Shown piece after piece: positions 766 through 57,800 of a stretch of DNA of 58,577 nucleotides. Location: the NCBI GenBank assembly GCA_003707115.1, contig PPNB01000026.1, positions 1-58,577 of the forward strand. Reading direction: 5' to 3'. Position numbers and translations under genes: made by a program. Each line of letters begins with the position of its first letter. Within the stretch, counting starts at the first letter, position 1. The notes under the pieces were generated by a model. That model was given only the letters and a program-made list of their open reading frames with translations, had not been told where the DNA came from and ran no database searches. The DNA comes from Tortispora ganteri (lineage: Eukaryota).

Positions 766-9452
<8,687 letters not shown>

Positions 9453-13110: not shown

Positions 13111-13160
13111 TCCGGCCAAGGCGTAGAAATATCCCCGGACATTTGACTTTATACCTTAGC
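13111..13160 (-). repeat. small hairpin repeat family C (TGTCCGGG...GGCCGGA), about 9 copies
   Basis: Copies at about 13111 and 15116(-); 41543, 42960, 46545, 47381, 47495, 48327 and 48790(+). Confidence 0.85.
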
Positions 13161-17375: not shown

Positions 17376-20300
17376 ATGGGATTAATATTTAATACATATA
17401 GAAATGATGTACCTCGACCATGGGGTATGTATTTCCAAGACAGTGCATCACCAGTCGAAGAAGGAATTATCGAGTTACATGACACAATAATGTTTTATTT
17501 AATAATAATATTAGTTGGAGTAACTTGGGGATTAGCATCAATAATCAAGAATTACAATGAATTTACACATCCAATGAGTTTAAAATATTTAACACATGGA
17601 ACAACATTAGAAATAATTTGGACAATTATACCAGGTTTAATATTATTAGTTATAGCATTTCCTTCATTTGCATTATTATATTTATGTGATGAAGTAATAG
17701 ATCCAGCTATGACAGTTAAGGTAATTGCCTCACAATGATATTGAAGTGCGTCGTCTAATGATATATACCGTTGTAAGACCTATAATCTTACCAATTTTTT
17801 GATCATAAATTGTAAAGCATTAAACTTATCCGATTCTGAAAAGATAGGGGAGTGTAGCATGTTTAAAAAGGATTTATATTTAAGTATTTCCGAGCTATTG
17901 TTGCTATGGTTTGACATTAAATATGTGGTGAGTTATACACTACTCTATTTTAGTGAAAATATTAATAATTATGTTAATATATATATAGCTAATATTCAAT
18001 ATTATATTTATAAAGTCAGTGTAAATATAAGATCAATATTGAAGCCTTATCATAATCTATGAGACAAGATATTTAAACCTAAGGCAATGACAATATATAA
18101 AGGTATATATCAGAATTCGAGATCACCTAAGGAAAGTAATTTCTATTATATGGCTAGAACATATAAATATATAAATAAACATTTTATATATGGTGACGGA
18201 GGTTTCGTAGTAGTTAATAGATTAAATAATAATTTAATTAATATTAGCAAAGGGAACCAGTTAAGGTCATTTCATAATTCTTCAGTTGGGTTTAATAAAA
18301 TTAATAATAAAATTATTAATAATAAAAATATTAATACTATACCGTCACAATTAATGAAAAAGTCTAATAATAATGTTAAAAATGTAGAAATAAAATGCAA
18401 TTATAAACAAATGTTTGATTTAAAATTTTGGATGGTCTGTTATAATTTCTTGAAATTAAATAAATTAGATCCATCTATAACTATTGAAGATATGGATCAT
18501 AAAGTAATAACTAAATTAGATAAGATCATAAATAGTATAAGAGATCGAACTTTCCAATTTAAATCTATAAATAATTTAAAGATATCAAAGAAAAAATCTA
18601 AATCTAAATCTAAATCTAAATCTCTTACTGTATCTAATTTTTGGGATAAATTAATATTGCAAGGTTATAGATTTATATTAGAATCTAAATATGAAAATGT
18701 ATTTGTTAATGAATCTCATGGATTTAGACCTTATAAATCACCTCAATCCGCTATTTTTCAAGTTAGAAAATGAACTGGTATAACTTGGATGATTAAAGGT
18801 AATTTACCTAATTTAATGAATAATATAGATCCTCATTTATTAGCTGAATTATTACGTAAAGAGATAAACGATAAAAATTTAATAGATGTATATTGGAAAA
18901 TCGTAAAATCTCGTTCTTTACTAAACGATTGTACTATGAATAACCTAAATATTCCACAAAATAATATTATATCCTCCTTTTTAGTAAATGTATATTTACA
19001 TGAATTTGATAAATTTATGTTAGAATTAATCGATAAATATTCAACTAAAGATAAAAGGATATCTTTTCCAAATCCTGAATATGATAGAATTGATCAGAAG
19101 ATTCGTAGAGATCATAAGAAATTAAAAAATATGCTTAGTAAAGCTAATGTAAAATTATCTAGAAAATTAAAAGATACTCATATTGATATTTATAATTTTT
19201 GGAAAGAATTAAATAAACTTATACAAGTACGTAGATCCTTAAATTCAAGTATTAGAACTAAAAATAAACTATATTATAACAGATATGGTAATACTTGGGT
19301 AGTTGGAATTATAGGTTCTTATGAATTTAGTAAATGTATTAAAAATCATATGGAGCAATATTTGATTAATCAACTTAAGATAAAATTATCAGATAATGAT
19401 AATAATATTAATATTTATCATTTAAGTAAAGATAATGTAGAATATTTAGGTTATATAATAAAAAGACATAATCAAAGATATAGTAATTCTAATATAGTTA
19501 ATGGACGAAGAGCGATAAATATGAGTGTAATTTTAGAAGTACCTATAATGTCTATAATTAATAAATTAATATCTTTCAATTTTGCTTTTAATAAAGAAAA
19601 ACCTAGAGCTTTAACTACATGAATATGGTTAAAGCCTCAGGATATCATAAAAAGATATAATGCAATAATTGGAGGTATATATCATTATTATAAATTTACT
19701 TCTAATATTTATAAATTTACTTATATATTTTGAATTTTATGGTTTTCAGCCGTTTTTACTTTAGCTCGTAAATGGCGAATAAGTCCAAGAAAAGTATTTA
19801 AAAAATTAGGTAAAGAATTAACTATTAAAGATGATAAAGGTGATATAATAATAAAATTATTTAAACCTGAAAATTTAAAAAGAAATTTAACAATAAAATA
19901 TAATAATAAAAATTATTATTATGATAATTTTGATCCTTTTGCTGTTAGATATTATAGTTTAAGATCTAATTTTATATGAAATAAAACTTGTGTGATTTGT
20001 AAAAGTAATGAAAATATTGTTATGCATCATATTAATCATGTTAGAAAAGGGAAAGTAATAGGATTTAATCAAATACGTAATCAATTAAAAAGAAATCAAA
20101 TACCCGTTTGTAAAAATTGTCATTTAAAAATACATAATGGTACATATGATGGTATTAAATTATCAAAATATGTTAATCATGGCTAGTACCTTAATGGAGA
20201 GCTCAATGCAGTGAAAGTTGCACGTTGAGTTCGGAGGGAGGTTAATTAGGTTCCTAGTTTAATTTATTATAGAAGAATATATTTTAATTAATATAATTTA

Positions 20301-20719
20301 TATTTTTATAAATTAAAAGGATTTGTTAATCCACCCTACCTTATGAATATTCAGATTTTATCACTGAAGATGGTGAATCTATTAATTTTGATTCATACAT
20401 CATTCCAGTTGATATGTTAGAACCAGGACAATTACGAATGTTAGATGTGGATAATAGATTAATTATTCCTGTTGATACTCATGTTAGATTTATTGTTACT
20501 TCTGGTGATGTTATTCATGATTTTGCATGTCCAGCTTTAGGATTAAAAATTGATGCTAACCCAGGGAGATTAAACCAAGTTTCAACTATTGCACAAAGAA
20601 CTGGAGTATTCTATGGAGGTTGTAGTGAATTATGTGGAGTTAAACATGATTCTATGCCTATTGCTATAGAAGCTGTTTCTCTTGAAAACTTCCTAGAATG
20701 GTTAGATGAACAAAGTTAA
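17376..20719 (+). CDS. cox2: cytochrome c oxidase subunit 2 (exons 17376-17745, 20340-20719)
   Basis: FQDSASP, LEIIWT, QW(TGA)YW(TGA)/TYEYSDF across the splice, CSELCG CuA motif. Confidence 0.97.
17746..20186 (+). CDS. degenerate group II intron RT-like protein, probable maturase, in frame with exon 1
   Basis: SHGFRP retained, YADD replaced by YGNT, HNH-like C-terminus; frame open when TGA=Trp. Confidence 0.85.
17746..20339 (+). mobile_element. cox2 group II intron
   Basis: 5' GTGCG; domain V GAGAGCTCAATGCAGTGAAAGTTGCACGTTGAGTTC; ends ...CCCTAC. Confidence 0.93.
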
Positions 20720-20847
20720 ATAAATATAAAATAATATATAAATAAAATATTATATCTTAATTATTAATTAATTAGATATAAATAATAAATTATATATATA
20801 TTATAAAATATAAAAATAAATTATGTAAAAATAATAAATAAAATAAA

Positions 20848-21522
20848 ATGAATTATATTTTAAATATAAATATATTTGAACCAATAATATTATTAGATAT
20901 ATTAAGTTATATTAGTATAATATCAGGTATAATGGTTATAACAGCAAAAAATCCTATAGTTTCTATATTATATTTAGTAGGTTTATTTATAAATACTGCT
21001 ATATATTTAGAAGTTGCAGGATTAAATTTAATAGGATTAATATATATACTTGTATATGTTGGAGCTATAGCTATATTATTATTATTTATAATAATGTTAT
21101 TAAATATAAAAATATCAGAATTACATAGTACAAGTAGTGGAGAAGATATACCATTAGCTACATTAATTAGTATTAGTTATATATATTTATGGTATAGTTT
21201 TAGTAAATCCACATATGAAGGTGTATTAGGTAATACAAGTAGTAATTGGTTATCTAATTTAAAAGGATTCTTAGATGAAATATTACTTCCTATTACTTAT
21301 GATAGTGAATATTTTTTAAGTAAATTTAAAAATAATATTTATAATTTAGATAATATTATTGAAGATCAAGTATCTTTAGGTACTATTAATGAATTAAAAA
21401 CTATAGGTGAATTATTTTATACTGAATATGGTATAAATTTAATAATCTTAAGTTTAGTTCTATTATTATCTATAATTACTGCAATAGTTGTTACACGAAA
21501 TTCTATAATATTAAAAGATTAA
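20848..21522 (+). CDS. nad6: NADH dehydrogenase subunit 6
   Basis: KNPIVSILYL and YVGAIAIL motifs. Confidence 0.96.
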   Translation: MNYILNINIFEPIILLDILSYISIISGIMVITAKNPIVSILYLVGLFINTAIYLEVAGLNLIGLIYILVYVGAIAILLLFIIMLLNIKISELHSTSSGEDIPLATLISISYIYLWYSFSKSTYEGVLGNTSSNWLSNLKGFLDEILLPITYDSEYFLSKFKNNIYNLDNIIEDQVSLGTINELKTIGELFYTEYGINLIILSLVLLLSIITAIVVTRNSIILKD

Positions 21523-21526
21523 TAAT

Positions 21527-22546
21527 ATGGGATACTTTTTAAGTAATATTTTAGAATTAATTATATTCTTACTTTGTGTTTTAATGGCAGTTGCTTATTT
21601 AACTGTTGCAGAAAGAAAAACATTAGGATATATGCAAAGAAGATTAGGACCTAATTATGTTGGGGTTTATGGATTATTACAAGCTTTTGCTGATGCATTA
21701 AAATTATTATTAAAAGAAATTATTATACCAAGAGATTCTAATTATATTATATTAATTGTTGCACCTTTTATTTCATTAGTTATTGCATTAATAGGTTGGG
21801 TTGTTATACCTATTGGACCTAATCTTACTTTAGCTGATTTACCTTTAGGGCTATTATATACATTAGCTGTTTCTTCTGTTGGAGTATTTGGAATATTATT
21901 AGCAGGATGGAGTGCTAACTCAAAATATGCTTTATTAGGATCAATTAGAAGTTCTGCTCAATTAATTAGTTATGAATTAGTTTTAACTACTGCTGTTATT
22001 ATTGTATTATTCTTTTCTAATACTTTAAATTATAGTTTACATATATTTTATCAAAGAAGTATATGGTTTGTTATACCTTGTATACCTTTATTTATTATAT
22101 ATTTTATATCAACATTAGCTGAAACTAATAGACCTCCTTTTGATTTACCTGAAGCTGAATCTGAATTAGTATCAGGTTATATGACTGAACATGGAGCTTC
22201 TCCTTTCGTATTCTTCTTCTTAGCTGAATACGCTAATGTTCTGTTTATGTCCTCTTTATCTGTACTATTATTCTTAGGTGGAGCTAATTTACCTATTAAC
22301 TTGTTTAATATTATTAATATTAATTCTGATATATTATATCAAACTTTATTAGGATTTAATTATGGATTAATATTTGGTATTAAAGTTAGTATGTTATTAT
22401 TCACCTTTATATGGGTTAGAGCTGCTTTCCCAAGACTAAGATATGATCATCTTATATTATTAGGATGGGGATCATTCTTACCTATCGTTATGGCTTTATG
22501 TTCTGTTGTTATAACTATATTATATGTGACAGATAGTCTATTATAA
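21527..22546 (+). CDS. nad1: NADH dehydrogenase subunit 1
   Basis: ERKTLGYMQRRLGPN and AETNRPPFDLPEAESELV motifs. Confidence 0.98.
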   Translation: MGYFLSNILELIIFLLCVLMAVAYLTVAERKTLGYMQRRLGPNYVGVYGLLQAFADALKLLLKEIIIPRDSNYIILIVAPFISLVIALIGWVVIPIGPNLTLADLPLGLLYTLAVSSVGVFGILLAGWSANSKYALLGSIRSSAQLISYELVLTTAVIIVLFFSNTLNYSLHIFYQRSIWFVIPCIPLFIIYFISTLAETNRPPFDLPEAESELVSGYMTEHGASPFVFFFLAEYANVLFMSSLSVLLFLGGANLPINLFNIININSDILYQTLLGFNYGLIFGIKVSMLLFTFIWVRAAFPRLRYDHLILLGWGSFLPIVMALCSVVITILYVTDSLL

Positions 22547-22634
22547 TTTAATTATATAATAATAATATTATGGATATATTTTCACCTATTTTTAGTTAAT
22601 ATCTTTGTTATAAAAAAATTAAATTAAAAAAAAT

Positions 22635-22781
22635 ATGCCACAATTAATACCATTTTATTTTGTTAATCAATTACTTTGGGGATTTACATTATTAAGTATA
22701 TTAATATACTTAACATCAGTATATATCTTACCTTCAATATTAAGATTATATTTAACACGATATTTTATAGTAAAATTATAA
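22635..22781 (+). CDS. atp8: ATP synthase subunit 8
   Basis: 48 aa MPQLIPFYFVNQ...; below the ORF-track size cutoff. Confidence 0.96.
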   Translation: MPQLIPFYFVNQLLWGFTLLSILIYLTSVYILPSILRLYLTRYFIVKL

Positions 22782-22922
22782 AATAATAAGATTATATAAA
22801 AAAAATATATAATTCAAATTAAGATCAAAAGCATACAAAAGTTCAAACTATATATAATATATAAATATATATATTAATCTTATAGTTAAAAGTCAGGTAA
22901 AAAGATCAAATTAAAAAAATCA

Positions 22923-23681
22923 ATGACATATTATATAAATAGTCCATTAGATCAATTTAATATAGTACCATTATTAAGTATAAACATGGGAAATATTAGT
23001 ATAAATCTAACAAATTTTGCATTATATTTTATATTATCAATATTAGTTATATTAACAATGTTAATAGCAGGTAATAACAACAATAAATTAATACCAAGTA
23101 AATGGTCATTAAGTCAAGAATCATTATTTAGTACAATGAGTGAAATGGTATTACATCAAATAGGAGGACCAAAAGGTCAATATTTTGTACCATTAATATA
23201 TTCATTATTTATGTTTATATTAGTTGCTAATTTAATAAGTATGATACCATATACTTTTGCAGTTAATTCACATTTAGTATTTACATTAAGTTTAAGTTTA
23301 ACATTATTTTTAGGTTATACAATATTAGGATTTTATACACATAAATGGGTATATTTTGCTATGTTTGTACCAGCAGGTAGTCCATTAGCTTTAGTTCCTG
23401 TTTTAGTTATAATTGAATTATTATCTTATCTTTCTAGAAGTGTATCTTTAGGATTACGATTAGGTGCTAATATTTTATCTGGACATACTTTATTAGCTGT
23501 TTTAAATGGATTCTTATTTGCTATTATGAGTTCTAATATTTTATTCTTCTTTATAGGATTTATACCTTTAACTATTGTTACTGGTATTACTATTTTAGAA
23601 TTCTTAATTGCATGTATTCAAGCTTATGTTTTCTGTATTTTAGCTTGTTCTTATATTAAAGAAGCTTTATACTTACATTAA
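22923..23681 (+). CDS. atp6: ATP synthase subunit 6
   Basis: SPLDQF, SLGLRLGANILSGH and IQAYVF motifs. Confidence 0.98.
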   Translation: MTYYINSPLDQFNIVPLLSINMGNISINLTNFALYFILSILVILTMLIAGNNNNKLIPSKWSLSQESLFSTMSEMVLHQIGGPKGQYFVPLIYSLFMFILVANLISMIPYTFAVNSHLVFTLSLSLTLFLGYTILGFYTHKWVYFAMFVPAGSPLALVPVLVIIELLSYLSRSVSLGLRLGANILSGHTLLAVLNGFLFAIMSSNILFFFIGFIPLTIVTGITILEFLIACIQAYVFCILACSYIKEALYLH

Positions 23682-23747
23682 ATTTTTATTTTTCACTTAT
23701 TTTTAGTATTATTATATTTATTATTATATTTATAATATAATTTAAAA

Positions 23748-23818
23748 TGTCTAAAAGAAGAATTGAACTTCTATCAAAACATCTTCAATGTTATGCTTTA
23801 CCATTAAGCTATTTAGAC
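23748..23818 (-). tRNA. trnF: tRNA-Phe(GAA)
   Basis: Cloverleaf on the minus strand; loop TTGAAGA. Confidence 0.88.
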
Positions 23819-23824
23819 ATAAAT

Positions 23825-23911
23825 CGGATAAAGTGAGATTCGAACTCACGGTATATTACTATACTTAATAGCTCAAATATTACGCCTTAAACCTGACTCG
23901 GCCATTTATCC
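23825..23911 (-). tRNA. trnS: tRNA-Ser(UGA)
   Basis: TAATA-tttgagc-TATTA; long variable arm. Confidence 0.9.
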
Positions 23912-23920
23912 ATTAATTTA

Positions 23921-23991
23921 TAGTTTTTAATGGAATCGAACCATTATTTTTTCATTATCAATGAAACACTTTACCGTTAAGTTAAAAAACT
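23921..23991 (-). tRNA. trnI: tRNA-Ile(GAU)
   Basis: TTTCA-ttgataa-TGAAA. Confidence 0.9.
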
Positions 23992-24033
23992 TAATTAATA
24001 AGTTAATAAATTGTATTTATCAATTATTATTAT

Positions 24034-24105
24034 CAAAAGTGAAGAGACTTGAACTCTTAACAAATAGTTTGGAACTACCGATTTTACCAATTAAACTACA
24101 CTTTT
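24034..24105 (-). tRNA. trnW: tRNA-Trp(CCA)
   Basis: GGTAG-ttccaaa-CTATT. Confidence 0.9.
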
Positions 24106-24150
24106 ATTATTATTTATTATTAATTAGTAGGAAAAAATTTTTATATTTAT

Positions 24151-24225
24151 GGATTAGATTTCTAAAAGGTTTTAGACTTGAATTGCAAATTCAATGTATT
24201 TAGGGTTCAATTCCCTTCTAATCCT
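24151..24225 (+). tRNA. trnC: tRNA-Cys(GCA)
   Basis: Acceptor GGATTAG/CTAATCC; anticodon loop contains GCA. Confidence 0.85.
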
Positions 24226-24286
24226 TTACTATTATTTTATTAATTATATTTATTATTATATATATATAAATATATATATCATTTCC

Positions 24287-24360
24287 AGTTCCCTCTAGGA
24301 GTCGAACCTAGACCCAGGAAATTAGAAGTATCCGACTCTAACCAATTAAGCTAAAGGAAC
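24287..24360 (-). tRNA. trnR: tRNA-Arg(UCU)
   Basis: Loop CTTCTAA; T-loop GTTCGAC. Confidence 0.9.
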
Positions 24361-26877
24361 AATTTTATTTGATTTTTGACTACATATAGACCTATTTAAC
24401 TATAAATCTTAATATTTTTTAATTTATAATAAGATTATATTTATAATTATTATAATAATTATTAAGTATTAAATTCTACGAAATAAGTCAAGATTATATA
24501 AATGGCCGGGAGGACCTAAAATAATAAAATATAGGCGATATGCTTATTACCCGGCCATATATTCATATAAATATATTAATATGATATGATATTTATTCAT
24601 TAGTTATTATTTATATTAATTTTATAAAATAATAATACAAAACAAATATATTTATATTGATTACTTAAATCCTACACAAAGGATATAAAGATTAAATGAT
24701 AACTACTACCCTCACTTCACTATTAAATAAAAGACTTTAATTCTTATTAAAAGTATTACGTTCGGGGAATGAAGTAATAGATAGAGTACTAGAGTAATAA
24801 AGTACTAGAGTACTAGAGTAATATAATAATATAATACAATATAATATAATATAATAAAATAAAATATAATATAATAATAGAGTAATAGAATACTAGAATA
24901 ATAGAGTAATGAAGTAATGTAATGTATTAATATAGTAATGGACTAATGTATTAATAAAGTAATGTAGTAATAAAGTAATGTAGTAATAAAGTAATGTAGT
25001 AATAGAGTAATGGAATAATGGTGTAATTAACTAATGGGGGGAATGGTGGAAGTTAATATTAAATATCTATTGTCTTAAAGATTATCGGGTTAGAAAGGTA
25101 TATTAAGTGTATATCTAATATACATATACGATTTTTACCCTCATAGCTTTTTAGATTTATTTATGTCATTCTTATATTATTAATATAATAAATAATAGTT
25201 AGATATAAATATAATAAATATAATTATATAATATAGTTATAATTAGTATAATAGGATAAATATCTAAGTAATATATAACAATTAAGACGTTGCAGACAAC
25301 AATGAACGAATTATTAATAATATAAAACTATTATTATAGATAAGATATATAAATATTATAATTTTAGGAAAATAAATTAAAATAGCAATAATACCCTCAC
25401 TTCACTATTTACTCAAGGGATTTTAGATTATTATTAAAAGTGTTACGTTCGGGGTTAAACATAAATATATATTTATTATTTAATTAATATTAAAATTAAT
25501 ATACATTAGATTTAGATATAATAAATTTAAATATATAAAATAATTTTATAATAATTATATTATAATTAAGAAATTATTTTAACTAATTATAAATAAATTA
25601 AATTATTAAAAATTATAAAAATATTGACATAAAGTAAGAATTATGATAAAAATATATAAAATTTAGTTAAAAATAGTGTAAAAATGTGCAAAAAAGTGTA
25701 AAAAATTGCATAAAAAATGCATAAAAAAAATAGCAATTATAAAAATAGGGGTCTGGACCCTAATATCTTTGAATAAAGATACTCACTAATAATAATCTTT
25801 TGTTTTAATTGCTCCCCAATACTACTTATACAGTTCTATTTTAATTTCATTTTTCTACTTTAATTAAAGACTATAAATAATAGATAAATTTTAGTTTTTA
25901 TCTTAATATTTAGTTAATTTATATCTGTAATACCTATAATCTTTTATTATGTTCATATTCTACTAGTTAAGCTTATACTTAAATTTAAGTTAGTAAATTA
26001 GTCTAAAAATAAAAAAGGTTAAAAAAAGTTCCAAAAGTAACGAAAATGGGATTTTTTGACTATCCTAAAATAGCTTACTAGACCTAATATCTACCCTAAG
26101 TCCCCATTTTACCCCTGGAATTTTGAAAATTCTTAGACGTAATTTTTTAGTTTAATAAACATAAACATAATTTTTATATCATTAATTATTAACTAATTTG
26201 TTGTAATATTTTTTGATTTATTAATCTTTATAATATACTAAATTTAATATTATAATTCTTTATTCTTTTATTTAATAAAATATAAATTTAAATATATGAT
26301 TTAATTTATTAATTAATTATTATATTATTAAAATATTATTCTTTCTAGATTTATTAAAATAATATTGACAAATAATAATTTATAAAAAAAAAGTATAAAA
26401 AAGTGCAAAAAAAAGTTAAATTTTTATAAAAAAGTACAGATTTTCTCAAAAATGGTCTTCTAGCCTTATAATCTTTTAAAAATAAGTCAATTAACTAATT
26501 TAAAAACGAATGTATAAAATTGGTAAAATAGGGGTATAAGCCCTATAATCTTTTGTAATATTTTCATTTACTGAAAAATGCAACTTTTTGTAAGGCTACC
26601 CCCTTAGAGATTTTTACATTTTTAGAAATATGTCTATAACACCTAATATCTTTACCTAAATTTTACCCTAAATTATACTAAAATATTACTTAATTTTTAT
26701 ATAATTTTAGATATATTTTTACTTAAATTTTATATTTAATTTTAAAATAATATTAATTTAATTAATAATAATAATTTATAAAATTAATATTTGTTAAATA
26801 AAATAATTAAAGATAATAAGTGTTTGTATTTAATAATTTAATACTTAAGTCTATGAGTAGAATTTTAAGTATTAAAA

Positions 26878-29441: not shown

Positions 29442-32400
29442 ATGGCAATTAGAAAAACAAATCCGCTATTATCTATAGCAAATGGTTATATGTTAGATTC
29501 ACCACAACCATCATCTTTATCATATATGTGGAATTTTGGAAGTTTATTAGGATTATGTTTAGTAATTCAAATATTATCTGGAATATTTTTAGCAATGCAT
29601 TATAATTCAAGTACTTTAATGGCATTTGATAGTGTAGATCATATTATGAGAGATTTAAATTATGGTTGGTTAATCCGATATTGTCATGCTAATGGAGCAG
29701 GATTCTTCTTTATAATGGTATATTGTCATATGGCTAGAGGTATATATTATGGAAGTTATAAACAACCTAGACAATTAGCTTGGTCTATAGGTGTTATAAT
29801 ATTCTTAATAATGGTATTAACAGCTTTTATGGGTTATGTATTAGTATGGGGTTCTATGAGTTTCTGGGGTAAAGTTTTTGCCCTAAATGTTTTTAAATAA
29901 ATAATTATTTTTATTTCAGATTTTATCTTCAATAATAAAAAACCACAAAAAAAAATAAACAATGAAAAAGACATTAACAAAAAATGATTTAAACAGAATA
30001 TTAAAAGAAAATAATCTTTATACAGTTTTTACTAGACCAAATGTAAGATCATATAAAAGAATTGGTCCTCATAATAAATGTGTTCTAGATTTTATGTTTG
30101 GATCATTATTAGGATATTCAAAAATTAGAAATTACAATGATGTAGGTTATAAATTAAAAATTTATAATCAACATAGACATGCTTCTTATTTTGATTTCCC
30201 AGTTGATTTCTTAATTAAACATGGATATTTTATTAGAACTAATAGTATTTTTGATATGAATGTACATTCAAGAATGAATAAATATAATAAACCTTATATA
30301 TATTTAGAAATTAATTTAAAAGCTATATCAAGTTTATGTTGGTTATATGATATGTTTTATATAGAAGATGATCATAAAATTTTACCAAATAATAATGATT
30401 TAGATTTATATTTAACTCCTTTTGCTTTAGCTATCTTATTTATGAATAATGGATATAAATATCATTCTGGATTTAGATTAAAAACTAGTCATTTTACTTG
30501 TGAAGAAAATGTTAGATTATCTAATTTCTTAAATGCTAAATATAATTTAACAACTAATGTTATTTATAGTAGAAATCAAGATGATATTCAAACTTGTACT
30601 ATATATATATCATATAAAACTGTTGAACTTTTTAAAGAATTAATTTCTCCTTATTTACATCCTTCTATGTATTATAAATTAGGAATTGAGGATAAAAAGG
30701 AATAATTATTCTATTAAATACATAGTTAATTATTTATATTAGCAACATTAGTGAAAATAGGTCAAATATTATTATTTATTTAATTTAGACCATCGGTTAT
30801 TGATATTTTTAGATCTATTATATTTAGATTTTTATACAATAATCGCGACAGACTGGTCCACTAATGGGTAATGAACAATAATAAATATAAATTTCTATTA
30901 TATAATATTATTATTATTACATTGCTTAATGTACAGTCGAATATTAGATATATTAATAAATAATATTAATATATTCCAATGTTATAATAATTATTATTCA
31001 AGCGTATGTCAGAATATATTATAACAAGGTATTATAAACTTACTGAAATAAGAAAGATAATATATAATATTGGCAACAGTTATTACAAATTTAGTATCAG
31101 TTATACCTTGGGTTGGTAATAGTATTGTACAATTTATATGGGGTGGATTTGGAGTTGGAGCACCAACTTTAAGTAGATTCTTTAGTTTACATTACTTATT
31201 CCCATTCATCTTAGCTGCTTTAGCTGCTGCTCATTTAATCGCTTTACATAAAGATGGAAGTAATAATCCTTTAGGTATATCTAGTAATATGGATAAATTA
31301 TCTATGCATCCTTATTTTATATTTAAAGATCTAGTTACTATATTCGCTTTCTTATTCGTTTATGGTTACTTCGTATTCTTCTCTCCTGATACTTTAGGAC
31401 ATCATGATAATTATACTCCAGCTAATCCTTTAGTTACTCCTATTTCAATAAAATAATATTTATACTTAATAATTAAATGAAATTATATATTAAACAAAAA
31501 TTTTATAAAAAAAATCCTAAATTATTAAATAAATATGATTCATTAAATTTAAAAAATTTAATTTGTGGATTATTTCAAGCTAAAGGATATATAGAAATAG
31601 AATTTTATAGTAAACATAAATATACTTGTAGGCCTATAATATATATAAGTATGAATTATTCACATAATACTTTAGAATTGTTTAAAATTATAAATGAAGT
31701 ATTTAATTATAAATTGAATTTATCTATAAATTTACTAAAATCTGGTAAATATCAAATATGTATATATTCTAGAAATTGAAATTTTATATTAAATGAATTT
31801 ATACCTTATTTAAATAATGTTTATGGTAATAAATATAAAAAATTTAATTATTTAAAAAGAATTCATAGTTTATTAATAAAATTAATTATTAATCCTAATA
31901 ATATTAATAATAAAATTAAATTAATTTATCTTGCTTATAGTATAAGTCCTAATTTACAAAGAAAAATTAGGCTTATAGATAAACTTATTACTTTAAATAT
32001 TTATAATAAAGAATATCTTAATTATTTATTAATTAATAATTATGCTAAAAATGTTGAAAATAATAAATTTAATTGTAATATATTTTTTATATTAGGACTT
32101 TATTTAGGTAATGGAAATATTAATTTTGATATTAGATATTCTAATAAATTACCTTTATATATAGTTAAATTTATTATCTTTAAAAAATATACTAAAGATA
32201 ATACAAAATTAATAATATTAATACAAAAATATTTAGATTCAATTAATATTATTTCACAATTATGTATTTATAAAAACTATATTGTATTAATTATAGAAAA
32301 TAATAAATCATTAAATATATTAAATAATAAAATAAAGTATGAAAATATGCATTTTAATAAAAATATTCAATTAACTATGTTAAATATATATTTAATATTA

Positions 32401-33487: not shown

Positions 33488-33637
33488 TAGATTATAATTA
33501 GGAAAGTCTAATAACAAATTAATAAGAATTAATTAATGGTACTTTAAAGAAAATAATTATTGAAAATTAATAATCCATAAACTTATATTTTAGCAAAGAT
33601 AAATAAATTTATACTAAATTTAGCTTACTATAATCTA
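33488..33637 (+). ncRNA. rnpB: probable minimal RNase P RNA
   Basis: CR-I-like AGGAAAGTC at about 33500, CR-V-like ACTAAATTTAGCTTA at about 33613, closing helix TAGATTATA/TATAATCTA. Confidence 0.7.
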
Positions 33638-44100: not shown

Positions 44101-46340
44101 TAGGAAAATACAAATATACCTAAAGATTATCGGCTTAGGAAGGTAAATTTATACTATTATTTCATAGTTTAGTTATTACTTAAATATCAATTATTATGAA
44201 ATATTACCAGTAATATAAACCTAATTTGTGATAAAATACACTTTTTAATACTTTTTTAACTTTTTTTAACACTTTTTTACACTTTTTGTTAATTATCTTA
44301 ATAATTAATTTTTAGTATAAAATATATATAATTTATTGTTATAAAAATTATTGAAATTAAATTAGTTATTTAAATTATAATTTATATATTTAAAATATAT
44401 ATTAATAAAATATTAAATAGGGATTAATTAATATTTATTATTTTATAAACTAGAAAATAATTTAGTCCCAAAAATAAGAAAAATTACATGTAGGAATTTT
44501 CAAAATTCCAGGGGTAAAATGGATAATTAGGCTAGATTATAGGTGTAATAGACCATTTTTAAGTGGTTAAAAAATCCCATTTTCGTTACTTTTAGAACTT
44601 TTTTAAACTTTTTCATTTCTAAAGGGAGGAATTTATAGAATGATATTAAATTAGAAATATTAAAGTATTTAAATATATTAAAACATTATAGGGTATAAAG
44701 GGTGGAATTATATAATTAACTTATTTTAAACTAGTATTTAGAGAGTAATTATAGACCTTTAGTTAAAGAGAAAAATAAAATTAAAATAGAATTGTATAAG
44801 TAGTATTGGGGAGCAATTAAAACAAAAGATTATTATTACTCTGTATCTTTATTCAAAGATATTCGGGTCCAGACCCTCTTTTTTAATATTGCTTAAAAAA
44901 AGATGCTATTTTTTACACGTTTTTTACACTTTTTTGCACTTTTTTAACATTATTTATACATTATTACTCAATTTTTCAATAAATATCCATAAATAAATAT
45001 AATAATCTCATAATTCACATTTATATAATTTAATATTTTGAGATAATTATTATAATTAATAATTAATTAATATTAGCCTAATTTTATTAATTTGTATAAT
45101 AAATTTAATTGTATATATTTTTAATATCTGAAAATAATTAATATATATTATATTAGTATTCAAATGTAATTATTTTATTTATAATAGCTAATATTTATAA
45201 TTAATCTATATATAATAAAATTTTATATTATAATTATAATTATAGCTAAAAGTATACAAATTTATGTCTATAATATAACTAAAAGTGTTATAAATTTAAT
45301 TTCATTTTTAGCTCTTTTTTGTAGGATAAATTTCGATACATAATAGGTAATATAGTTAAAATTATAAAAATGTGAAATTTCCTAAGGGGGTAGCCTTACA
45401 AAAAGTGTAAATTTCCATTAAATTGAAAATATGCAAAAGATATTCGGTTTAGAAGCTATATTTTAACCATTTATTATATTGAAATTTAACTTAGTTTTTT
45501 AACTTATTTTTAATACATTATAGGTGTTATAAGCATAATTTGCCTAAATAGCTCAATTTTTGCCTTTTTTAGACATTTTTTTTTTACTTTTTTATACTTT
45601 TTTATAAATTACTTAGTTATTGTCATTGTCATTGTATAATTTTTATAATAATTAAATAAACTTATATTAATATACTTTAATATTATAATTATTATTTATT
45701 AATTTAATATATATAATCCATTAGCTAAATTATTAATTAATAAAAATTATATCTATTATTATTATTTTATTATTAAATTTAAGATTAATATAAAAATCTA
45801 ACTTATATTAATTTGCAAACTGAAATTAAAATAATTTAGTCCCAAAAAAGCTTAAAAATAAGTTATCGAGTTTTCAAAATTCCAGGGGTAAAATGGATGA
45901 TTAGGGTAGATTATAGGTATTAAAGACTATATTTTAGTAATGGAAAAATCCCATTTTCGTTACTTTTAGAACTTTTTACAACTTTTTTATTTTTAAATTA
46001 ATAAATTTATAACATTAAATTATTTTATTAATTTAAGTTTAGTTATATAATATTAAACATTATAGGGTATATTAAGTATATTAATGTAATATATTGATTA
46101 TTTAATCTAATTTTATGACTATTATACAAGATTAAATTAGATAGAATTTTGATTTTAAAATAGAATTGTATAAGTAGTATTGGGGAGCAATTGAAATCAA
46201 AGATTATTATTAGTGAGTATCTTTATTCAAAGATATTAGGCTTAGAAGCCACATTTTAAATATTGCTGATTTTTTTTGTGCATTTTTTGTCAATTTTTGT
46301 ACACTTTTTGTCAATTTTTGCATTGTTTTTGTAATATTAT
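41170..46340 (+). repeat. array of four alternating A+B modular elements (period about 1.3-1.5 kb)
   Basis: A cores at 41211, 42632, 44068 and 45382; B starts at 41761, 43292, 44493 and 45869. Confidence 0.9.
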
Positions 46341-49792: not shown

Positions 49793-51259
49793 ATGTTATT
49801 TACATTGCTCACATTAGAATTAATGTTATCATCCTACAAAGACAGTCACATCCCAGGTACTAAATTAAGTATATCTCATTATTTATCGAGATTAACAATA
49901 ATAGGCCTAATTTATTCAATAATATTATTATATCATAATATGATATGAAGTGAAAATTTAATTCGCTTAAATTTATATAATGATAGTTTGACCACAACAA
50001 ATTATTTATCTTTAATAGAAATATTAATATATATGATAAGTATAATAATATTATTTATAAATACAACACGATTAAACCAAAGTTATGGTCGAATAATCAC
50101 AGAATACCCATTATTATGTTTATTTACGATATTGGGTAGCATATTATTAATAAAATCAAATAATATGTTAATGATGTTTATATCGATAGAATTACAAAGT
50201 TATTCTTTATATTGTTTAAGTGTAATATATAATGAAACTGAAAATTCAACAAAAGCAGGCTTAAAATATTTCTTTTTAGGTGGTTTAGCTTCAATATTAA
50301 TATTATTAGGAATAGGAATAATTTATGGAGAAACAGGTGTATTAAATATTGAATATATAATAAGTTTATTAAATTATACAAATATTAATACTCAAATAAA
50401 TTATGGTATAATAATTATAATAATCGGTTATTTATTCAAAGTAGGTGCAGCTCCTTTCCATAGTTGGTCTCCTGATGTATATAATGAAGTTCCAACTAAG
50501 ATAACAGCTTGGATAAGTGTAATCCCAAAAATAGGATTATTAGTTTATATAGGTTTATTATCAAATTTATTAATAAGTAATAATAAATTTTTATTAATGT
50601 TAGCAGGTATATTATCAATATTAATAGGAGCTATAGGTGGAATATCTGAAATAAATTTTAAAAGATTATTAGGATATAGTGGTATAACTAATGTAGGTTA
50701 TCTATTATTAACTTTAAGTTCTTATAATAATATAATAAAAGAAGGATTTATTGTATATTTAATTCAATATTCAATAATATCAGCTAATATATTTTTAATA
50801 ATAATATTATTAGGTATATATAAATCAAAATATTTATCAAATAAAAGTATATTATCACCAATAAGATATATAAAAGATTTTAATGAATTATATAATTATA
50901 ATCCATTATTAATAATATGTTTAACAATATCATTATTCTCATTAATAGGAATACCACCATTAATAGGATTTTATAGTAAATATTGGTTAATTCAAGAATT
51001 ATTAAGTGGAGGTTTAATTTATCCATCATTAATCTTAATATTAGGTAGTGTAATAAGTTCATATTATTATCTTAATGTAATACGAAATTTATATAAAATA
51101 AATGCCACAGAAGAATATGAAAAAGTAACTAATACTTTATCAATAAATTTATCACCAATATTAAGTTATTTAATATCAGTATTAACAATATTTACAGTAT
51201 TTATGTTTAGCGATTTTGAGTCTATATTAAAAGGTTTACATATATTAAGTAATATCTAA
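49793..51259 (+). CDS. nad2: NADH dehydrogenase subunit 2
   Basis: IELQSY, GLKYFFLG and FKVGAAPFHSWSPDVY motifs; frame extends upstream through TGA 49946 to ATG 49793 (start less certain). Confidence 0.92.
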
Positions 51260-52592: not shown

Positions 52593-54104
52593 ATGAATTT
52601 AAATATATTATTATTATTAATACCATTACTAACAATTGGATTTTTGAGTCCTCTATATAGTAATGTTGAGATAGCAATTTTACCTTTAAAAAATTATTAT
52701 AAAAATATGCTTTTAGGGGTTTACGTTAAGAATTATAAAAATAAGATAATGGAATTATCATTATTAGGTTTAATAATATCCTTAGGTATAATATCTATAA
52801 TATGAGCAAATTTCAATAGCTTAGAATTAGGTTTTCAAGGTATAAGTTATACTTTTAATAGCTTAAATTTAGGTTATGATGGTAATTCAATATTTTTCAT
52901 TATATTAACAGGTTTAATAATGCCAATAGCTTTATTATCTAATTGGTATAACTTACCTAAAGGTAATCATAATGAAAAAGGATATGCAATATTAATCTTA
53001 TTATTAGATTTATTATTATTAACAAATTTTTTAATATTAGATATAATAGGATTTTATATATTCTTTGAAAGTATTTTAGCTCCATTTTATATATTAATTG
53101 GAATCTATGGAAGTACAAATAAAGAGAAAGCTTCCCTTTATCTTTTAATATATACATTAGCTAGTTCTTTATTAATGTTATTAGGAATATGTATGATAAA
53201 TATATTATCACATACAACATCTTTTATATTATTAAATAATTTTGTAATGTCAATAGAAGTTCAATCAATAATTTGGTTAGGAGTATTTATCGCAATAATG
53301 GTAAAGACTCCAATATTCCCAGTACATGGTTGGTTACCTGTAGTACATTCGGAATCTCCATTAGGTGGTTCAATAATCTTAGCTGGAATAGTCCTAAAAT
53401 TAGCAATATATGCAATAATTAGAATATTATTACCATTATTATCAGAAGCAACTATATTATTTACTCCATTAGTTTATGTAATATGTGCAATAACAGTAAT
53501 ATATACTTGTTTAGCAACAGTACGACAAACAGATACAAAAGTAATTATAGCTTATAGTTCAATATCACATATGGGAGTATGTTTATTAGGTGTATTTGCC
53601 AATAATTTATTAGGATTAGAAGGTGCAATGATGTTAGGATTAGCTCATGGATTTGTATCTCCAGCATTATTTATTTGTGTAGGAGGTGTACTTTATGATA
53701 GATATCATACTAGAATTGCTTATATATATCAAGGATTAGCAACATATTTACCATTATTTAGTACATATTTATTAGTATTTAGTTTAGCTAATATAGGTAC
53801 ACCATTATCAGGTAATTTCTTAGGAGAATTCTTAGCCTTAGCAGGTGCATATCAAAGATCTCCTCTAATTGCAGTATTAGGTGTAACTAGTGTATTATTA
53901 AGTGCAGTATATATGATGAGATTTACTTCAAAATTAATTGGAGGTATTAAACCTAAAAATTTACCTATAGTTAAAGATTTAACTAATAGAGAAATAACTA
54001 TGTTTAATTCATTATTAATACCTATGCTATTATTAGGTATTTTACCTAATTTTGTATTTAAATCTTTAGGTACTTCACTCTCAAGTTTACTATATATAAT
54101 ATAA
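52593..54104 (+). CDS. nad4: NADH dehydrogenase subunit 4
   Basis: The two ORF-track pieces join through TGA 52803; FFES, HGWLPVVHSESP and AYSSISHM motifs. Confidence 0.96.
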
Positions 54105-54811: not shown

Positions 54812-57800
54812 ATGCAATTTATATCACGATGATTATTTAGTACATCAGCTAAAGACATTAGTGTATTATATTTAATAATATCACTATTTTCAGGAATGAT
54901 GGGTACAGGATTTTCAGCAATAATGCGATTAGAACTATCTAGTCCAGGATATGTATTCCTACACGGGGACAATCAAGTCTTCAATACCGTGGTTTCTGCC
55001 CATGCGATCGCGATGAGTGCGCCAATGTGTGTTGCTGAAGGGTTGACCTTTCTAAATATAAGGTTAGCAAACGAAAATAGTTGCTTAAAGAGCTATCAGG
55101 CTGGTGGAATCAAACTCCATGAGGAAACTCAAACAGCTAAGCTGATAGAAACGGGAGTAATTGAAATTATAACTCAAATTTTATACTTTATTCCTTATCT
55201 AATTTGTTCAACGTTTAGGATAACGAACTTGATACACAATATTCATCACAATGGGATCGCTGTTAAATGAGTTAATAGAACAGTAGCGTTATTTCTCCTA
55301 ATTTTATCATCGGTTTTAGGACTATTTTCAACAAATAACGGAAAATATCACATAGATATCTATAATTGTGCAAGGAACCTAGAACAAAGCGCCCTCTCAA
55401 CGAACTTTGGGATCACCTACGGGAACCAAATTTATTCTAAAATTTATTCAAAAATTTATTGTGTTCCTAATAATTCTAATAATAATAAATTTATTAATAG
55501 AAGACCCTTTAATGGGTGGTGACGGAATTGTCATAGTAGCATACAAAACAATATGCAAAGGACAATAGTTGTGAACTTACAAGTGAGAACCTTTTCCTCA
55601 AAAGCCGATCTTAATAAATTTAGAAATATAGAGATGTTACGTGGCAGCGAAGATAAGAAATCACTCAAATCTATAAATATAAATATAAAAAATATTAGTA
55701 ATATCAAAAATCTGATAACTGCTTATGAATTAATAAAAAGTAATCCTAGTAATATGAATCAAAAAAGAGATAATCTAACTCTTGATGGTTTAACTATGAC
55801 AACTTTACAAGATATTCAAACTAAATTAAAAGCAGGTAAATATCTCTTTAATCCTAGTACTAGAATTCAAATACCTAAATTAATAACCAAGGGAACAAGA
55901 TCTCTAACAATATCTTCCCCTCGTGAAAAAATAGTGGAAAAAGCAATACATTTAGTATTAGAACGCTATTACGAAAACAAATTCTTACCCACTTCTCATG
56001 GATTTAGACCTGGTAAAAGTGTTCATACTGCTATGAAAAATTTAGAAGCAGAATTTCAAAGTGTACATTATATAATTGAAGCTGACTTCTCTAAAGCATT
56101 TGATAATATACAACATAAAACTCTGCTAACTATTCTTAAAAAAGATATAAAATGTGAAAAAACATTAAAATTAATTAAATCTTTACTAAAAGCTGGATAT
56201 ATTGAATTTGGAAATCTGCATAATGAATTAAGTATGGGTATATCTCAAGGTTCAATACTTAGTCCTATATTATGTAATATTTATTTAAATCAATTAGATT
56301 TATATATAGAAAAGTTAAAAAGTGAATATAATATAGGAAATAAAAGACCAAAAAATATAGAATATGAAAAATTACAGAGTAAAGCCAAATACTGAAGAAA
56401 AAAAGGATATGACAAAAGTCAACCTTTAGAATATCAACAATTATTAAAAAATTTAAGATCCATACCTAGTATTGTTCATAATAAGGAATTTATTAGAATA
56501 CAATATGTCAGATATGCGGATGACTTTCTTATAGGAATAGAAGGTAGTTATACAATGGCTAAAGAAATATTAACAAAAATAGATGAATTTATTACTAACG
56601 AATTACAATTAAAATTAAATCCAGATAAAACTCATATAACTAAATATTCAATATATCCTGTCTCATTTTTAGGTTATAATATTATGGCTCCTCATAAGAA
56701 GAATATTATAAAACCTATTGAAGTTATTCCAGTGAATGGTAAACTAATTAGCAGAAGAAAAAAGATCAGAATTAGAATAGGAATGGATTTAAACAAAGTT
56801 TTAGATAAACTAGCTCAAAACGGATTCATTCGAAAAAGGGTTTCCCATTCTAAACATAATAAGCTAATATATAGAGGAACTTTTAAAGGTAATCTAATTA
56901 ATTTAGATCATGCCGATATATTAAAATATTATAATTCTATAGTAAGAGGATTAACTAATTACTATCAATTTGTGGATAATAGAAGTTCATTAGCCTGAAT
57001 TCAATGGCTTATAAAAGAATCTTGTGCCTTAACGTTAGCAAGAAAATTTAAATTAAGAACTTTAGCTAAAACATTCAAAAAATTTGGTAAAGATTTATCT
57101 GTAAAAATAAAAGGCAATATAATATTATCATTTGTTAGTATTAAATATCAATCTGCTTCTAATATCGCATACATTATACCTGAAAAAAAGAATCCTTTCA
57201 AAAGCTTAGAGTCAGTATGAAACGCAAAATTTACCAAATCTAATTTAAATGCATCTTGTATAATTTGTAATAGTAAAGACAATGTTGAAATGCATCACGT
57301 CAGAAAAATTAGAGATTTAAAAAATAAAAATAGTAAATTAGACTTTTTCACAAGACAAATGGCAGCTATTAATAGAAAACAAGTTCCATTATGTAAAAAT
57401 CATCATATTAAATTACATAATAATATGTTAACATCTTTAGAAAGAACATTATTTAAACATAACATAAATAATAAACAATAAATAAATTACTAATATGACA
57501 TATACTTTATCTATAGAAGGTTTAGATTAACCAAGTTTACAATGGAAAGCCGTATGATGGGAGACTATCACGTACGGTTTGGAGGGCAGTAGTCTCTTAA
57601 GGAGCCTCGACTGACCCTACTATTCTTCATGGTGATGCCTGTTACAATGGGTGGATTAACGTTTTAGTCCCCTTATCATTCATTTATTAGGAATAATAAG
57701 GAAAATCGGGTGAATTGTCAGGGAAATCCTCCTAATTATATATAATTAATTAATTAATTATATCCAGGATAATCTGCAGCGAAGCTTATGAAGATATAAA

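What the first reader, a model, noticed from the sequence alone, without database searches (positions are those of the whole stretch)
24034..24105. Only tRNA-Trp(CCA), with a wobble-weakened anticodon stem, yet core genes need UGA=Trp
Seen: among 25 tRNAs none has a UCA anticodon. Trp is mostly TGG, but in-frame TGA occurs in cox1 (54830), cox2 (17736 and 17742, at the conserved QWYW), nad2 (49946), nad4 (52803) and repeatedly in intron ORFs. The tRNA has G27-U43 and G28-U42 wobble pairs at the top of the anticodon stem and A24. Known: S. pombe mitochondria have only tRNA-Trp(CCA) with rare UGA; a shortened anticodon stem (Blastocrithidia) or A24 (Hirsh suppressor) promotes UGA reading. Inference: an intermediate state of codon reassignment, solved by tRNA body structure or C34 editing/modification, which may also throttle maturase expression.
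Basis: partly seen in the sequence, partly recalled or inferred. Interest (0 to 1): 0.7.

Follow-up and report, generated by a model that had tools for sequence, protein, structure and literature searches.

The report
Lone CCA tryptophan tRNA reading UGA
A budding-yeast mitochondrial genome carries only the ordinary tryptophan tRNA (anticodon CCA) yet needs the stop-like codon UGA read as tryptophan in a few core genes and in many mobile-intron genes, a half-way stage of a genetic-code change that is already known from fission yeast.

Summary
The window is a complete circular fungal mitochondrial genome. Its length, AT content and gene coordinates equal the published annotation of Tortispora ganteri (PMC9154068 supplement).

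- **tRNAs:** ARAGORN plus Rfam find 25. The only tRNA-Trp (24034-24105, minus strand) has anticodon CCA, and no UCA tRNA appears even at E<=10.
- **TGA use:** It is never a stop (24 of 24 ORFs end TAA/TAG). It is in frame 5 times in core genes (5 TGA, 55 TGG; other A/G-ending families are 94-100% A) and 30 times in nine intact intron ORFs (30 vs 34).
- **Meaning of TGA:** Four of five core sites and 6 of 7 tested intron-ORF sites align with Trp in homologues.
- **tRNA body:** G27.U43 and G28.U42 are real and unique among the 25 tRNAs. The arm is not unusually unstable, and U11-A24 occurs in 9 of 24 tRNAs.
- **Relatives:** Published tables show CCA-only in Lipomyces and the sister Tortispora (no TGA), CCA plus UCA in Trigonopsis variabilis, and UCA-only in T. 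vinaria.

This is therefore an early stage of UGA-to-Trp reassignment, of the fission-yeast kind, and this scan has seen it before on other DNA. How UGA is read could not be tested.

The parts
24034..24105 (-). Sole mitochondrial tRNA-Trp gene. Anticodon CCA at 24072-24070. Has G27.U43, G28.U42, G10.U25, U11-A24, A36-A37-A38 and discriminator G. No encoded CCA end.
   Evidence: ARAGORN, Rfam RF00005 at 56.5 bits, stem analysis, and the same coordinates as the published feature table.
54830..54832 (+). TGA, codon 7 of cox1 (RW*LFST).
   Evidence: W aligns with W in P0132 and P0200 and in the sister species. It lies 187 nt upstream of the first group II intron.
17736..17744 (+). Two TGA codons (17736, 17742) of the cox2 QWYW motif. 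They are the third- and last-but-one codons of exon 1, 10 and 4 nt before the group II intron.
   Evidence: QWYW aligns with solved COX2 chains.
17746..20339 (+). cox2 group II intron. It starts GTGCG, has domain V at 20197-20339, and holds a reverse transcriptase/maturase ORF in frame with exon 1 with 5 TGA and 10 TGG. An EBS1 candidate TTCAAT at 17995 pairs with the last 6 exon bases.
   Evidence: and the published exon table.
49946..49948 (+). TGA, codon 52 of nad2, in a poorly conserved N-terminal stretch.
   Evidence: It aligns with F in the sister species and L in two solved ND2 chains.
52803..52805 (+). TGA, codon 71 of nad4.
   Evidence: W in the sister species and in chain 9iho_M; D in 7zm7_4.
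55016..57481 (+). cox1 intron 1 (group II) reverse transcriptase ORF with 5 TGA and 2 TGG. It stands for the nine intron ORFs that together hold 30 TGA and 34 TGG. The other eight are 58353-58577 joined to 1-684, 1022-3541, 3750-4625, 4752-7292, 7739-8902, 17745-20186, 29962-30705 and 31477-32709.
   Evidence: no internal TAA/TAG in any of the nine. TGA aligns with W or aromatic residues.
45783..45859 (-). Low-score ARAGORN 'tRNA-Trp(tca)' call, rejected as noise.
   Evidence: No Rfam tRNA hit there at E<=10.

Best explanation
This is the only tryptophan tRNA of a complete budding-yeast mitochondrial genome. The genome matches the published Tortispora ganteri record (family Trigonopsidaceae).

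Shown: in this organelle UGA is not a stop. It is a rare tryptophan codon.

Inferred mechanism: the CCA tRNA itself reads UGA through a C34.A third-position mismatch. This would be tolerated because fungal mitochondria have no release factor that recognises UGA (recalled, not tested). It is probably helped by an i6A37-type modification, since the A36-A37-A38 signal is present. The G.U-weakened top of the anticodon stem may also help.

This reading would be slow. That would explain why selection holds UGA to 8% of Trp codons in core genes despite extreme A-bias, and to 47% in mobile-intron ORFs.

The lineage keeps the ancestral CCA anticodon of early-diverging budding yeasts. UGA codons are appearing before the anticodon has changed. 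They arise partly by G-to-A drift. For the two cox2 codons, they lie inside the exon bases that pair with a group II intron and probably arrived with it or are held by it.
For: - **One trnW, CCA; no other candidate:**
- **TGA never a stop:** 15 of 15 core genes end TAA, and the nine intron ORFs end 7 TAA and 2 TAG.
- **TGA means Trp:** cox1 codon 7, both cox2 codons and nad4 codon 71 align with W in homologues. In the cox2 intron ORF, 4 of 5 TGA align with W in at least 2 of 3 homologues. Two TGA in a cox1 LAGLIDADG ORF match FWNWFAG of P0132. Paralogue columns 299, 765 and 897 pair TGA with TGG.
- **Costly decoding:** core genes have 5 TGA and 55 TGG, while Lys, Glu, Gln, Leu(TTR) and Arg(AGR) are 94-100% A-ending. 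Intron ORFs have 30 and 34 against 0.89 expected. Core versus intron Fisher p is 2e-6.
- **Ancestral CCA and a staged series:** Table S7 lists CCA only in 7 Lipomyces and 2 Tortispora sheets, both genes in Trigonopsis variabilis, and UCA only in 13 other sheets. Table S4 shows no TGA in the sister Tortispora and two Lipomyces, and TGA dominant in both Trigonopsis.
- **General rule:** in 14 environmental loci, nad5 has 5-7 TGA with UCA and 0 TGA with CCA. This window's nad5 has 0 TGA and 8 TGG.
- **Intron link for cox2:** the TGAs lie at -10 and -4 of the GTGCG intron start, and an EBS1 candidate pairs with the last six exon bases. The intron-less sister species has no TGA in cox2.
Against: - Nothing here shows which molecule reads UGA. 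No RNA or protein data could be seen.
- Cox1 needs one UGA and Cox2 needs two. Eight of nine intron ORFs need 2-5 each, and some are probably maturases needed for splicing. That argues decoding is not very inefficient, which plain C.A mispairing may not deliver.
- The release-factor argument rests on recall. The nuclear genome is not held.
- The intron link explains only 2 of 5 core TGA. No EBS2 partner was found for cox2 and no close donor of the intron ORF exists in the database (best 38-41% identity).
- The cox1 TGA lies outside the visible patch of foreign-looking codons.
- The meaning of the Table S4 columns was inferred from the RSCU layout, not from a header.
Confidence: 0.5

Rival explanations
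1. C34 of the tRNA is changed after transcription, by C-to-U editing as in kinetoplastid mitochondria or by a base modification that lets C pair with A. Part or all of the pool would then be a true UGA reader.
For: - UGA sits in essential, highly expressed cox1 and cox2 and in eight of nine intact intron ORFs, which calls for reasonably efficient decoding.
- The organelle very probably already modifies a C34 to read A. ATA is the commonest Ile codon (337 in core genes), yet the only Ile tRNA is GAU, alongside three CAU tRNAs.
- The same idea was proposed for S. pombe (passage of PMC7200024).
Against: - In S. pombe, primer extension found no difference at C34 (same passage).
- Strong avoidance of TGA in core genes (5 of 60) is not expected if an efficient UGA reader existed.
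- With a UCA tRNA, relatives use TGA almost exclusively.
- No editing of this kind is known to me in fungi (recalled).
Confidence: 0.25
2. Another decoder exists that the window does not show. It could be a nuclear-encoded UGA-reading tRNA imported into mitochondria, or a trnW(UCA) lost from the assembly.
For: A relative, Trigonopsis variabilis, carries both trnW genes, and one environmental locus has them in tandem (L002). About 15 kb of the window is AT-rich sequence without recognised genes.
Against: - The sequence closes on itself: a 303-codon LAGLIDADG ORF runs across the window ends without TAA/TAG.
- No further tRNA-like hit appears at Rfam E<=10.
- Codon usage is that of a CCA-only genome.
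- The sister species is also annotated CCA-only.
Confidence: 0.08
3. The TGA codons are not translated as Trp. They would be assembly errors, sites corrected at the RNA level, or stops in decaying genes.
For: No reads could be laid on the sites. The nad2 site is not a conserved Trp. Intron ORFs could be recent arrivals that are not expressed.
Against: - There are 35 in-frame TGA but no in-frame TAA or TAG in about 9,600 codons of a 78% AT genome.
- Most tested TGA fall on conserved Trp.
- cox1 and cox2 cannot be pseudogenes in a respiring yeast.
- Two runs from different studies hold 99% of the sampled words of 17300-24400, though either may be the source.
Confidence: 0.05

Closest known systems
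Schizosaccharomyces pombe mitochondria: single trnW(CCA) with rare UGA(Trp)
   Same: - One mitochondrial tRNA-Trp, encoded with C34 and the A36-A37-A38 signal for i6A37.
- UGA used rarely as Trp, and more often in accessory or intron ORFs than in core genes.
- Mechanism unsolved (passages of PMC7200024; the intron-ORF detail is recalled).
   Different: - A different subphylum (a budding yeast with complex I genes).
- Here UGA sits in cox1, cox2, nad2 and nad4. The passage read names only rps3 for S. pombe.
- Two of the codons lie in the intron-binding bases of a group II intron.
Lipomyces species and the sister Tortispora species: trnW(CCA), no UGA
   Same: The same anticodon, and for the sister species the same trnC-trnW neighbourhood. 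TGG is used for Trp.
   Different: Those genomes show no TGA in the genes tabulated. This one has 5 in core exons and 30 in intron ORFs, and far more introns (about 11 against 1 in the sister species).
Trigonopsis variabilis (trnW CCA plus UCA) and T. vinaria (UCA only), same family
   Same: The same family and gene set, and UGA means Trp.
   Different: They possess the dedicated UCA reader and use TGA almost exclusively. The window has no such gene.
Blastocrithidia/Condylostoma nuclear tRNA-Trp(CCA) with a 4-bp anticodon stem
   Same: A CCA anticodon that must read UGA, and the weakening lies at the top of the anticodon stem.
   Different: Here five pairs can form, the top two as G.U. The system is organellar, and no functional test exists. 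A weak 27-43 pair is also common in other tRNAs of this genome (6 of 24).
Kinetoplastid mitochondrial tRNA-Trp C34-to-U editing (recalled)
   Same: A CCA-encoded tRNA-Trp serving a mitochondrion that uses UGA as Trp.
   Different: That tRNA is nuclear-encoded and imported, and UGA is frequent there. Editing here is only a possibility.

Membership tests
Fission-yeast-type decoding state (single mt trnW(CCA) plus rare UGA-Trp) | Only one trnW in the mtDNA, with anticodon CCA | tested here: met
Fission-yeast-type decoding state (single mt trnW(CCA) plus rare UGA-Trp) | In-frame UGA at positions where homologues have Trp | tested here: met
   4 of 5 core sites. 6 of 7 tested intron-ORF sites.
Fission-yeast-type decoding state (single mt trnW(CCA) plus rare UGA-Trp) | UGA not used as a stop, and UGG strongly preferred in core genes | tested here: met
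   24 of 24 ORFs end TAA/TAG. 5 TGA against 55 TGG.
Fission-yeast-type decoding state (single mt trnW(CCA) plus rare UGA-Trp) | The CCA tRNA is the molecule that inserts Trp at UGA | not testable with these tools
   Needs tRNA sequencing and peptide data.
Standard fungal mitochondrial code 4 with trnW(UCA) | A tRNA-Trp gene with anticodon UCA | tested here: not met
   None among the 25 tRNAs. The one low-score 'tca' call is at chance level.
Standard fungal mitochondrial code 4 with trnW(UCA) | TGA as the main Trp codon under AT bias | tested here: not met
   TGA share is 0.083 in core genes. UCA-bearing loci have 5-7 TGA against 0-1 TGG in nad5.
4-bp anticodon-stem tRNA-Trp(CCA) (Blastocrithidia type) | Anticodon stem shortened from 5 to 4 base pairs | tested here: not met
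   Positions 27-43 and 28-42 can pair as G.U, so five pairs form. Whether they behave as unpaired is unknown.
Hirsh-type suppressor tRNA-Trp | A24 in place of G24, giving U11-A24 in the D stem | tested here: inconclusive
   U11-A24 is present, but 9 of 24 tRNAs of this genome share it, so it is not diagnostic.
C34-edited or C34-modified tRNA-Trp | Position 34 differs between the gene and the mature tRNA | not testable with these tools
   Requires sequence of the mature tRNA, which these tools do not give.

The most novel reading that the evidence does not exclude
One cultivable yeast family holds every stage of the UGA stop-to-Trp change alive: CCA without UGA, CCA with UGA, CCA plus UCA, and UCA alone. 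In the CCA-with-UGA member, the tRNA-Trp would be made UGA-competent after transcription. One route is the organelle's own C34-modifying activity, the one that must already exist to read the 337 AUA codons, acting on part of the tRNA-Trp pool. Another is C-to-U editing. Either would be a tRNA modification or editing event not described in fungal mitochondria.
Probability: 0.15. Interest if true: 0.8.

Novelty: new member of a known kind. Interest (0 to 1): 0.45.

Why it matters
Theories of codon reassignment differ on whether a codon must vanish before it changes meaning, or can be read ambiguously first. This genome shows UGA at essential tryptophans of Cox1 and Cox2 while the anticodon is still CCA. 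Close relatives represent the stage before (no UGA) and the stages after (two tRNAs, then UCA only).

These yeasts can be grown, so the open question is directly testable with tRNA sequencing, ribosome profiling and peptide mass spectrometry. That question has also stood unsolved in fission yeast: how does a CCA tRNA serve UGA?

The practical point is smaller. The published annotation labels the genome 'code 4' and lists trnW(cca) without comment, and it leaves cox1 and rnl unannotated.

Tried and rejected
- **Whole genome:** not held, so no look at the nuclear release factor, MOD5, or TilS-like or NSUN3-like genes.
- **Read laying:** Nothing could be read at the TGA sites or the tRNA.
- **Sequencing runs:** no RNA holder listed.
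- **Papers not held:** the zygomycete mitogenome paper by DOI and by a recalled PMC id, and the mitovirus UGA paper PMC5517309.
- **Reversal idea dropped:** my interim idea was that the CCA anticodon is a secondary reversal inside a UCA clade. I dropped it when Table S7 showed CCA in all seven Lipomyces sheets and both genes in Trigonopsis variabilis.
- **Hidden UCA tRNA:** the low-threshold candidate at 45783-45859 was rejected.
- **Codon context:** the base after TGA is A 19, T 9, G 5, C 2 of 35, against a background A of 0.39 (p 0.08).
- **Donor of the cox2 intron:** the best database homologues of its ORF are 38-41% identical, so no recent donor is identified. No EBS2 partner was found for cox2.
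- **Thermodynamic folding of the tRNA:** it does not return the cloverleaf (z -1.4), as is usual for AT-rich mitochondrial tRNAs, so it says nothing about the stem.
- **Wasted look-up:** one supplement search returned only tree labels.

Full report
**What the window is.** It is 58,577 bases at about 22% G+C. It carries bacterial-type small and large rRNA genes, five group II intron domain V hits and 25 tRNAs. The protein genes are the fungal mitochondrial set, with nad4L-nad5 and nad2-nad3 adjacent and a free-standing rps3.

An ORF of 303 codons runs from 58353 across the end to 684 without TAA or TAG, so the sequence is a closed circle.

nad5 has two close relatives known only from assembled sequencing runs (95% and 83% identity). 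Everything else is about 54%, with named hits in Ascomycota.

The supplementary tables of Christinaki et al. 2022 (PMC9154068; I read passages of the main text and parts of supplement file 1) list a mitogenome of exactly 58,577 bp and AT 0.7821 for Tortispora ganteri, family Trigonopsidaceae. Its feature table has the same coordinates as my calls for every gene I compared. That includes trnW(cca) at 24105..24034 and trnC(gca) at 24151..24225. I take the window to be that record.

**The tRNA set.** ARAGORN gives 24 tRNAs. Rfam adds one at 24152-24224, which ARAGORN's mitochondrial mode reads as Cys(GCA). The only tRNA-Trp is at 24034-24105 on the minus strand, with anticodon CCA.

Several searches for a hidden UCA tRNA found nothing:
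- Allowing tRNA introns changes nothing.
- A permissive Rfam scan of the whole window at E<=10 returns the same 25 loci and no further tRNA-like match.
- At 80% of ARAGORN's threshold, 32 extra calls appear, one of them a 'Trp(tca)' at 45783-45859. It has 17% G+C, two U.U mismatches in the acceptor stem and no T-loop consensus.
- Twelve random sequences with the window's dinucleotide transitions gave 31 such calls on average, and 3 of 12 contained a 'tca' call. That candidate is noise.

**TGA is a sense codon, and it means tryptophan.** All 15 core genes end in TAA. The nine intron ORFs end in TAA (7) or TAG (2). TGA never ends an ORF.

- **cox1 codon 7:** in RWLFST, with W in two database homologues and in the sister species.
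- **cox2, two codons:** in QWYW, aligned to solved COX2 chains.
- **nad4 codon 71:** W in the sister species and in the best solved homologue, D in another.
- **nad2 codon 52:** in a poorly conserved stretch, F in the sister species and L in two solved chains. This site shows only that the frame must be read through.

Intron ORFs give independent support:
- In the cox2 intron reverse-transcriptase ORF, four of five TGA align with W in at least two of three homologues.
- Two TGA of a cox1 LAGLIDADG ORF match FWNWFAG in P0132.
- Among the four reverse-transcriptase paralogues, TGA pairs with TGG in three columns and otherwise mostly with Y or F.

**Codon statistics.** For cox1 I mapped eight exons by tblastn with database homologues. 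A few junction codons were left out of the count.

| Gene set | TGA | TGG | TGA share | A-share of other purine-ending two-codon families |
|---|---|---|---|---|
| 15 core genes | 5 | 55 | 0.083 | 0.94-1.00 per family, 0.979 pooled (binomial p 4e-86) |
| 9 intron ORFs | 30 | 34 | 0.47 | 0.889 pooled (p 2e-16) |

The core and intron sets differ (Fisher p 2e-6). The other families compared are Lys, Glu, Gln, Leu(TTR) and Arg(AGR).

So TGA is strongly selected against where expression matters, and less so in mobile-element genes. This is the signature of a codon that is readable but costly.

**The tRNA body.** The gene folds into a normal cloverleaf with G18G19, a TTCAAGT T-loop and discriminator G.

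- **G.U pairs:** G27.U43 and G28.U42 are there. This is the only one of the 25 tRNAs with two non-Watson-Crick pairs in the anticodon stem, and the only one with a non-Watson-Crick 28-42.
- **Stability:** many stems in this genome are all A-U, so the arm is only the 8th weakest of 24 by energy. A non-Watson-Crick 27-43 occurs in 6 of 24.
- **A24:** it pairs with U11, as in 9 of 24 tRNAs, so the likeness to the Hirsh suppressor (recalled) carries no weight.
- **Position 37:** A36-A37-A38 is present, the recognition signal for isopentenylation of A37. [quoted passage not shown]

**Context from other fungi.** I scanned 80 environmental fungal mitochondrial loci fetched with a nad5 profile (817 kb, 392 tRNAs). 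They hold 15 tRNA-Trp genes in 14 loci: nine UCA and six CCA, with one locus carrying both in tandem.

- nad5 has 5-7 TGA and 0-1 TGG wherever the tRNA is UCA.
- nad5 has 0 TGA and 9-12 TGG wherever a CCA gene is present.
- The window's nad5 (0 and 8) behaves as a CCA genome.

All nine UCA genes have a non-Watson-Crick 27-43 pair (eight mismatches, one G.U), against two of six CCA genes (Fisher p 0.011). Many of the UCA genes are near-identical, so relatedness is not controlled. The S. cerevisiae mt-tRNA-Trp(UCA) probe printed in PMC7200024 implies G27.U43 as well.

A weak top of the anticodon stem thus goes with UGA reading in fungal mitochondria, and the window's CCA tRNA shares it.

**Evolutionary placement.** Table S7 of PMC9154068 has 23 sheets with a trnW gene:
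- trnW(cca) alone in seven Lipomyces species and both Tortispora species.
- Both trnW(cca) and trnW(tca) in Trigonopsis variabilis.
- trnW(tca) alone in T. vinaria, Sporopachydermia, Nakazawaea, Pachysolen, Peterozyma, Saccharomycopsis and seven Hanseniaspora sheets.

I read the last two count columns of each gene block in Table S4 as TGA and TGG. I inferred this from the RSCU layout, not from a header. On that reading there is no TGA in the sister Tortispora, L. mesembrius or L. lipofer, and TGA is dominant in both Trigonopsis.

I first thought CCA might be a reversal. These tables make retention of an ancestral CCA the better reading, with UCA arising by duplication and a C-to-T change.

Among the CCA-only species whose rows I saw, this genome is the only one with TGA. 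It represents the step at which UGA codons appear before the anticodon changes.

Neither the main text of that paper (the genus is never named) nor that of Wolters et al. 2023 comments on this (PMC10701893: no occurrence of UGA, TGA or tryptophan). Searches for the genus or family together with mitochondrial, UGA, tRNA or genetic code found nothing else. I did not read the supplements of PMC10701893.

**Where the core TGA codons may come from.** The two cox2 codons are the third- and last-but-one codons of exon 1. They lie 10 and 4 bases before a group II intron that starts GTGCG. That puts them inside the exon bases that pair with the intron RNA (the IBS1/IBS2 positions; established group II biology).

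- A unique TTCAAT at 17995 can pair with the last six exon bases. I found no second partner.
- The rare codons AAG and GCC sit just upstream.
- The intron-less sister species has no TGA in cox2.
- If the five TGA were scattered at random over the 60 Trp codons, both of these would be hit with probability 0.006. The site was chosen after seeing it.

At cox1 intron 1, the exon end GCGATC/CGATGA has exact partners GATCGC (55255) and TCATCG (55307) in the intron. A patch of G/C-ending codons, foreign to this genome, flanks introns 1 to 3. That is what co-conversion of exon flanks during intron homing leaves behind (recalled mechanism).

The cox1 TGA lies 187 bases upstream, outside that patch. nad2 and nad4 have no introns. 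So three of the five are better explained by G-to-A drift that is tolerated.

**How UGA is read.** This step is inferred, not shown.
- **Preferred (about 0.5):** the CCA tRNA reads UGA by a C.A mismatch, unopposed because the mitochondrial release factor does not see UGA (recalled). The strong avoidance of TGA speaks for an inefficient reader.
- **Main rival (about 0.25):** a change at C34. ATA is the commonest Ile codon (337 in core genes), while the only Ile tRNA is GAU and there are three CAU tRNAs. So an activity that makes C34 read A must already exist in this organelle. The need for UGA in Cox1, Cox2 and probable maturases also asks for fair efficiency.
- **Also considered:** an unseen UCA tRNA (0.08), and non-translation or sequence error (0.05).

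**Standing.** The same oddity was noted by this scan in at least six other genomes, and it is known from fission yeast. This is a new member of a known kind. Its distinguishing points are UGA in cox1 and cox2, the link of two codons to a group II intron, and a family that holds all stages of the change.

Noticed in passing
window 54812-58577 and 1-9452: cox1 spans the window ends. It has eight exons (about 54812-55016, 57621-57657, 58044-58193, 767-1021, 3672-3749, 4719-4751, 7370-7738 and 8982-9452) and seven introns: three group II with reverse-transcriptase ORFs and four group I. The published feature table lists only the ORFs and leaves cox1, and also rnl, unannotated.
   Followed up: partly
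window 54960-55016, 57621-57657, 58044-58140: A patch of G/C-ending codons (GCG, GTG, GGG, CCC, CTG, TCG) flanks cox1 introns 1-3 in a genome that is otherwise 96-98% A-ending. The exon end GCGATC/CGATGA has exact partners in intron 1 at 55255 and 55307. It looks like exon co-conversion from a more GC-rich intron donor.
   Followed up: partly
window 18893-19632 and 33499-33628: The published table marks two 'rnpB' copies, one of them inside the cox2 intron ORF. Rfam finds no RNase P RNA anywhere in the window at E<=10, so these labels are unsupported. Yeast mitochondrial RNase P RNAs are very reduced and could still escape the models.
   Followed up: partly
window 36357-36427, 36667-36737, 36743-36816 (minus strand): There are three CAU-anticodon tRNAs but only one Ile tRNA (GAU), while ATA is the commonest Ile codon (337 in core genes). 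One CAU tRNA is therefore probably a tRNA-Ile whose C34 is modified to read A. The third (36743-36816) scores low (33 bits) and has an odd D arm.
   Followed up: partly
window 12900-17300, 24400-26800, 41000-49700: About 15 kb of 16-19% G+C sequence has no ORF of 90 codons or more and no RNA family hit. Its content was not examined.
   Followed up: no
window 37169-40757 (minus strand): rnl is interrupted by a group II intron (domain V at 38491-38565) and a group I intron (37626-37843). No ORF of 90 codons or more was listed on that strand, unlike the ORF-bearing introns of cox1 and cox2.
   Followed up: no
L002 4582-4762: An environmental fungal mitochondrial contig carries trnW(cca) and trnW(tca) 34 bases apart on the same strand, yet its nad5 has 0 TGA and 9 TGG. 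This is a duplicated-gene stage like the one tabulated for Trigonopsis variabilis, but with TGA not yet in use in nad5.
   Followed up: partly
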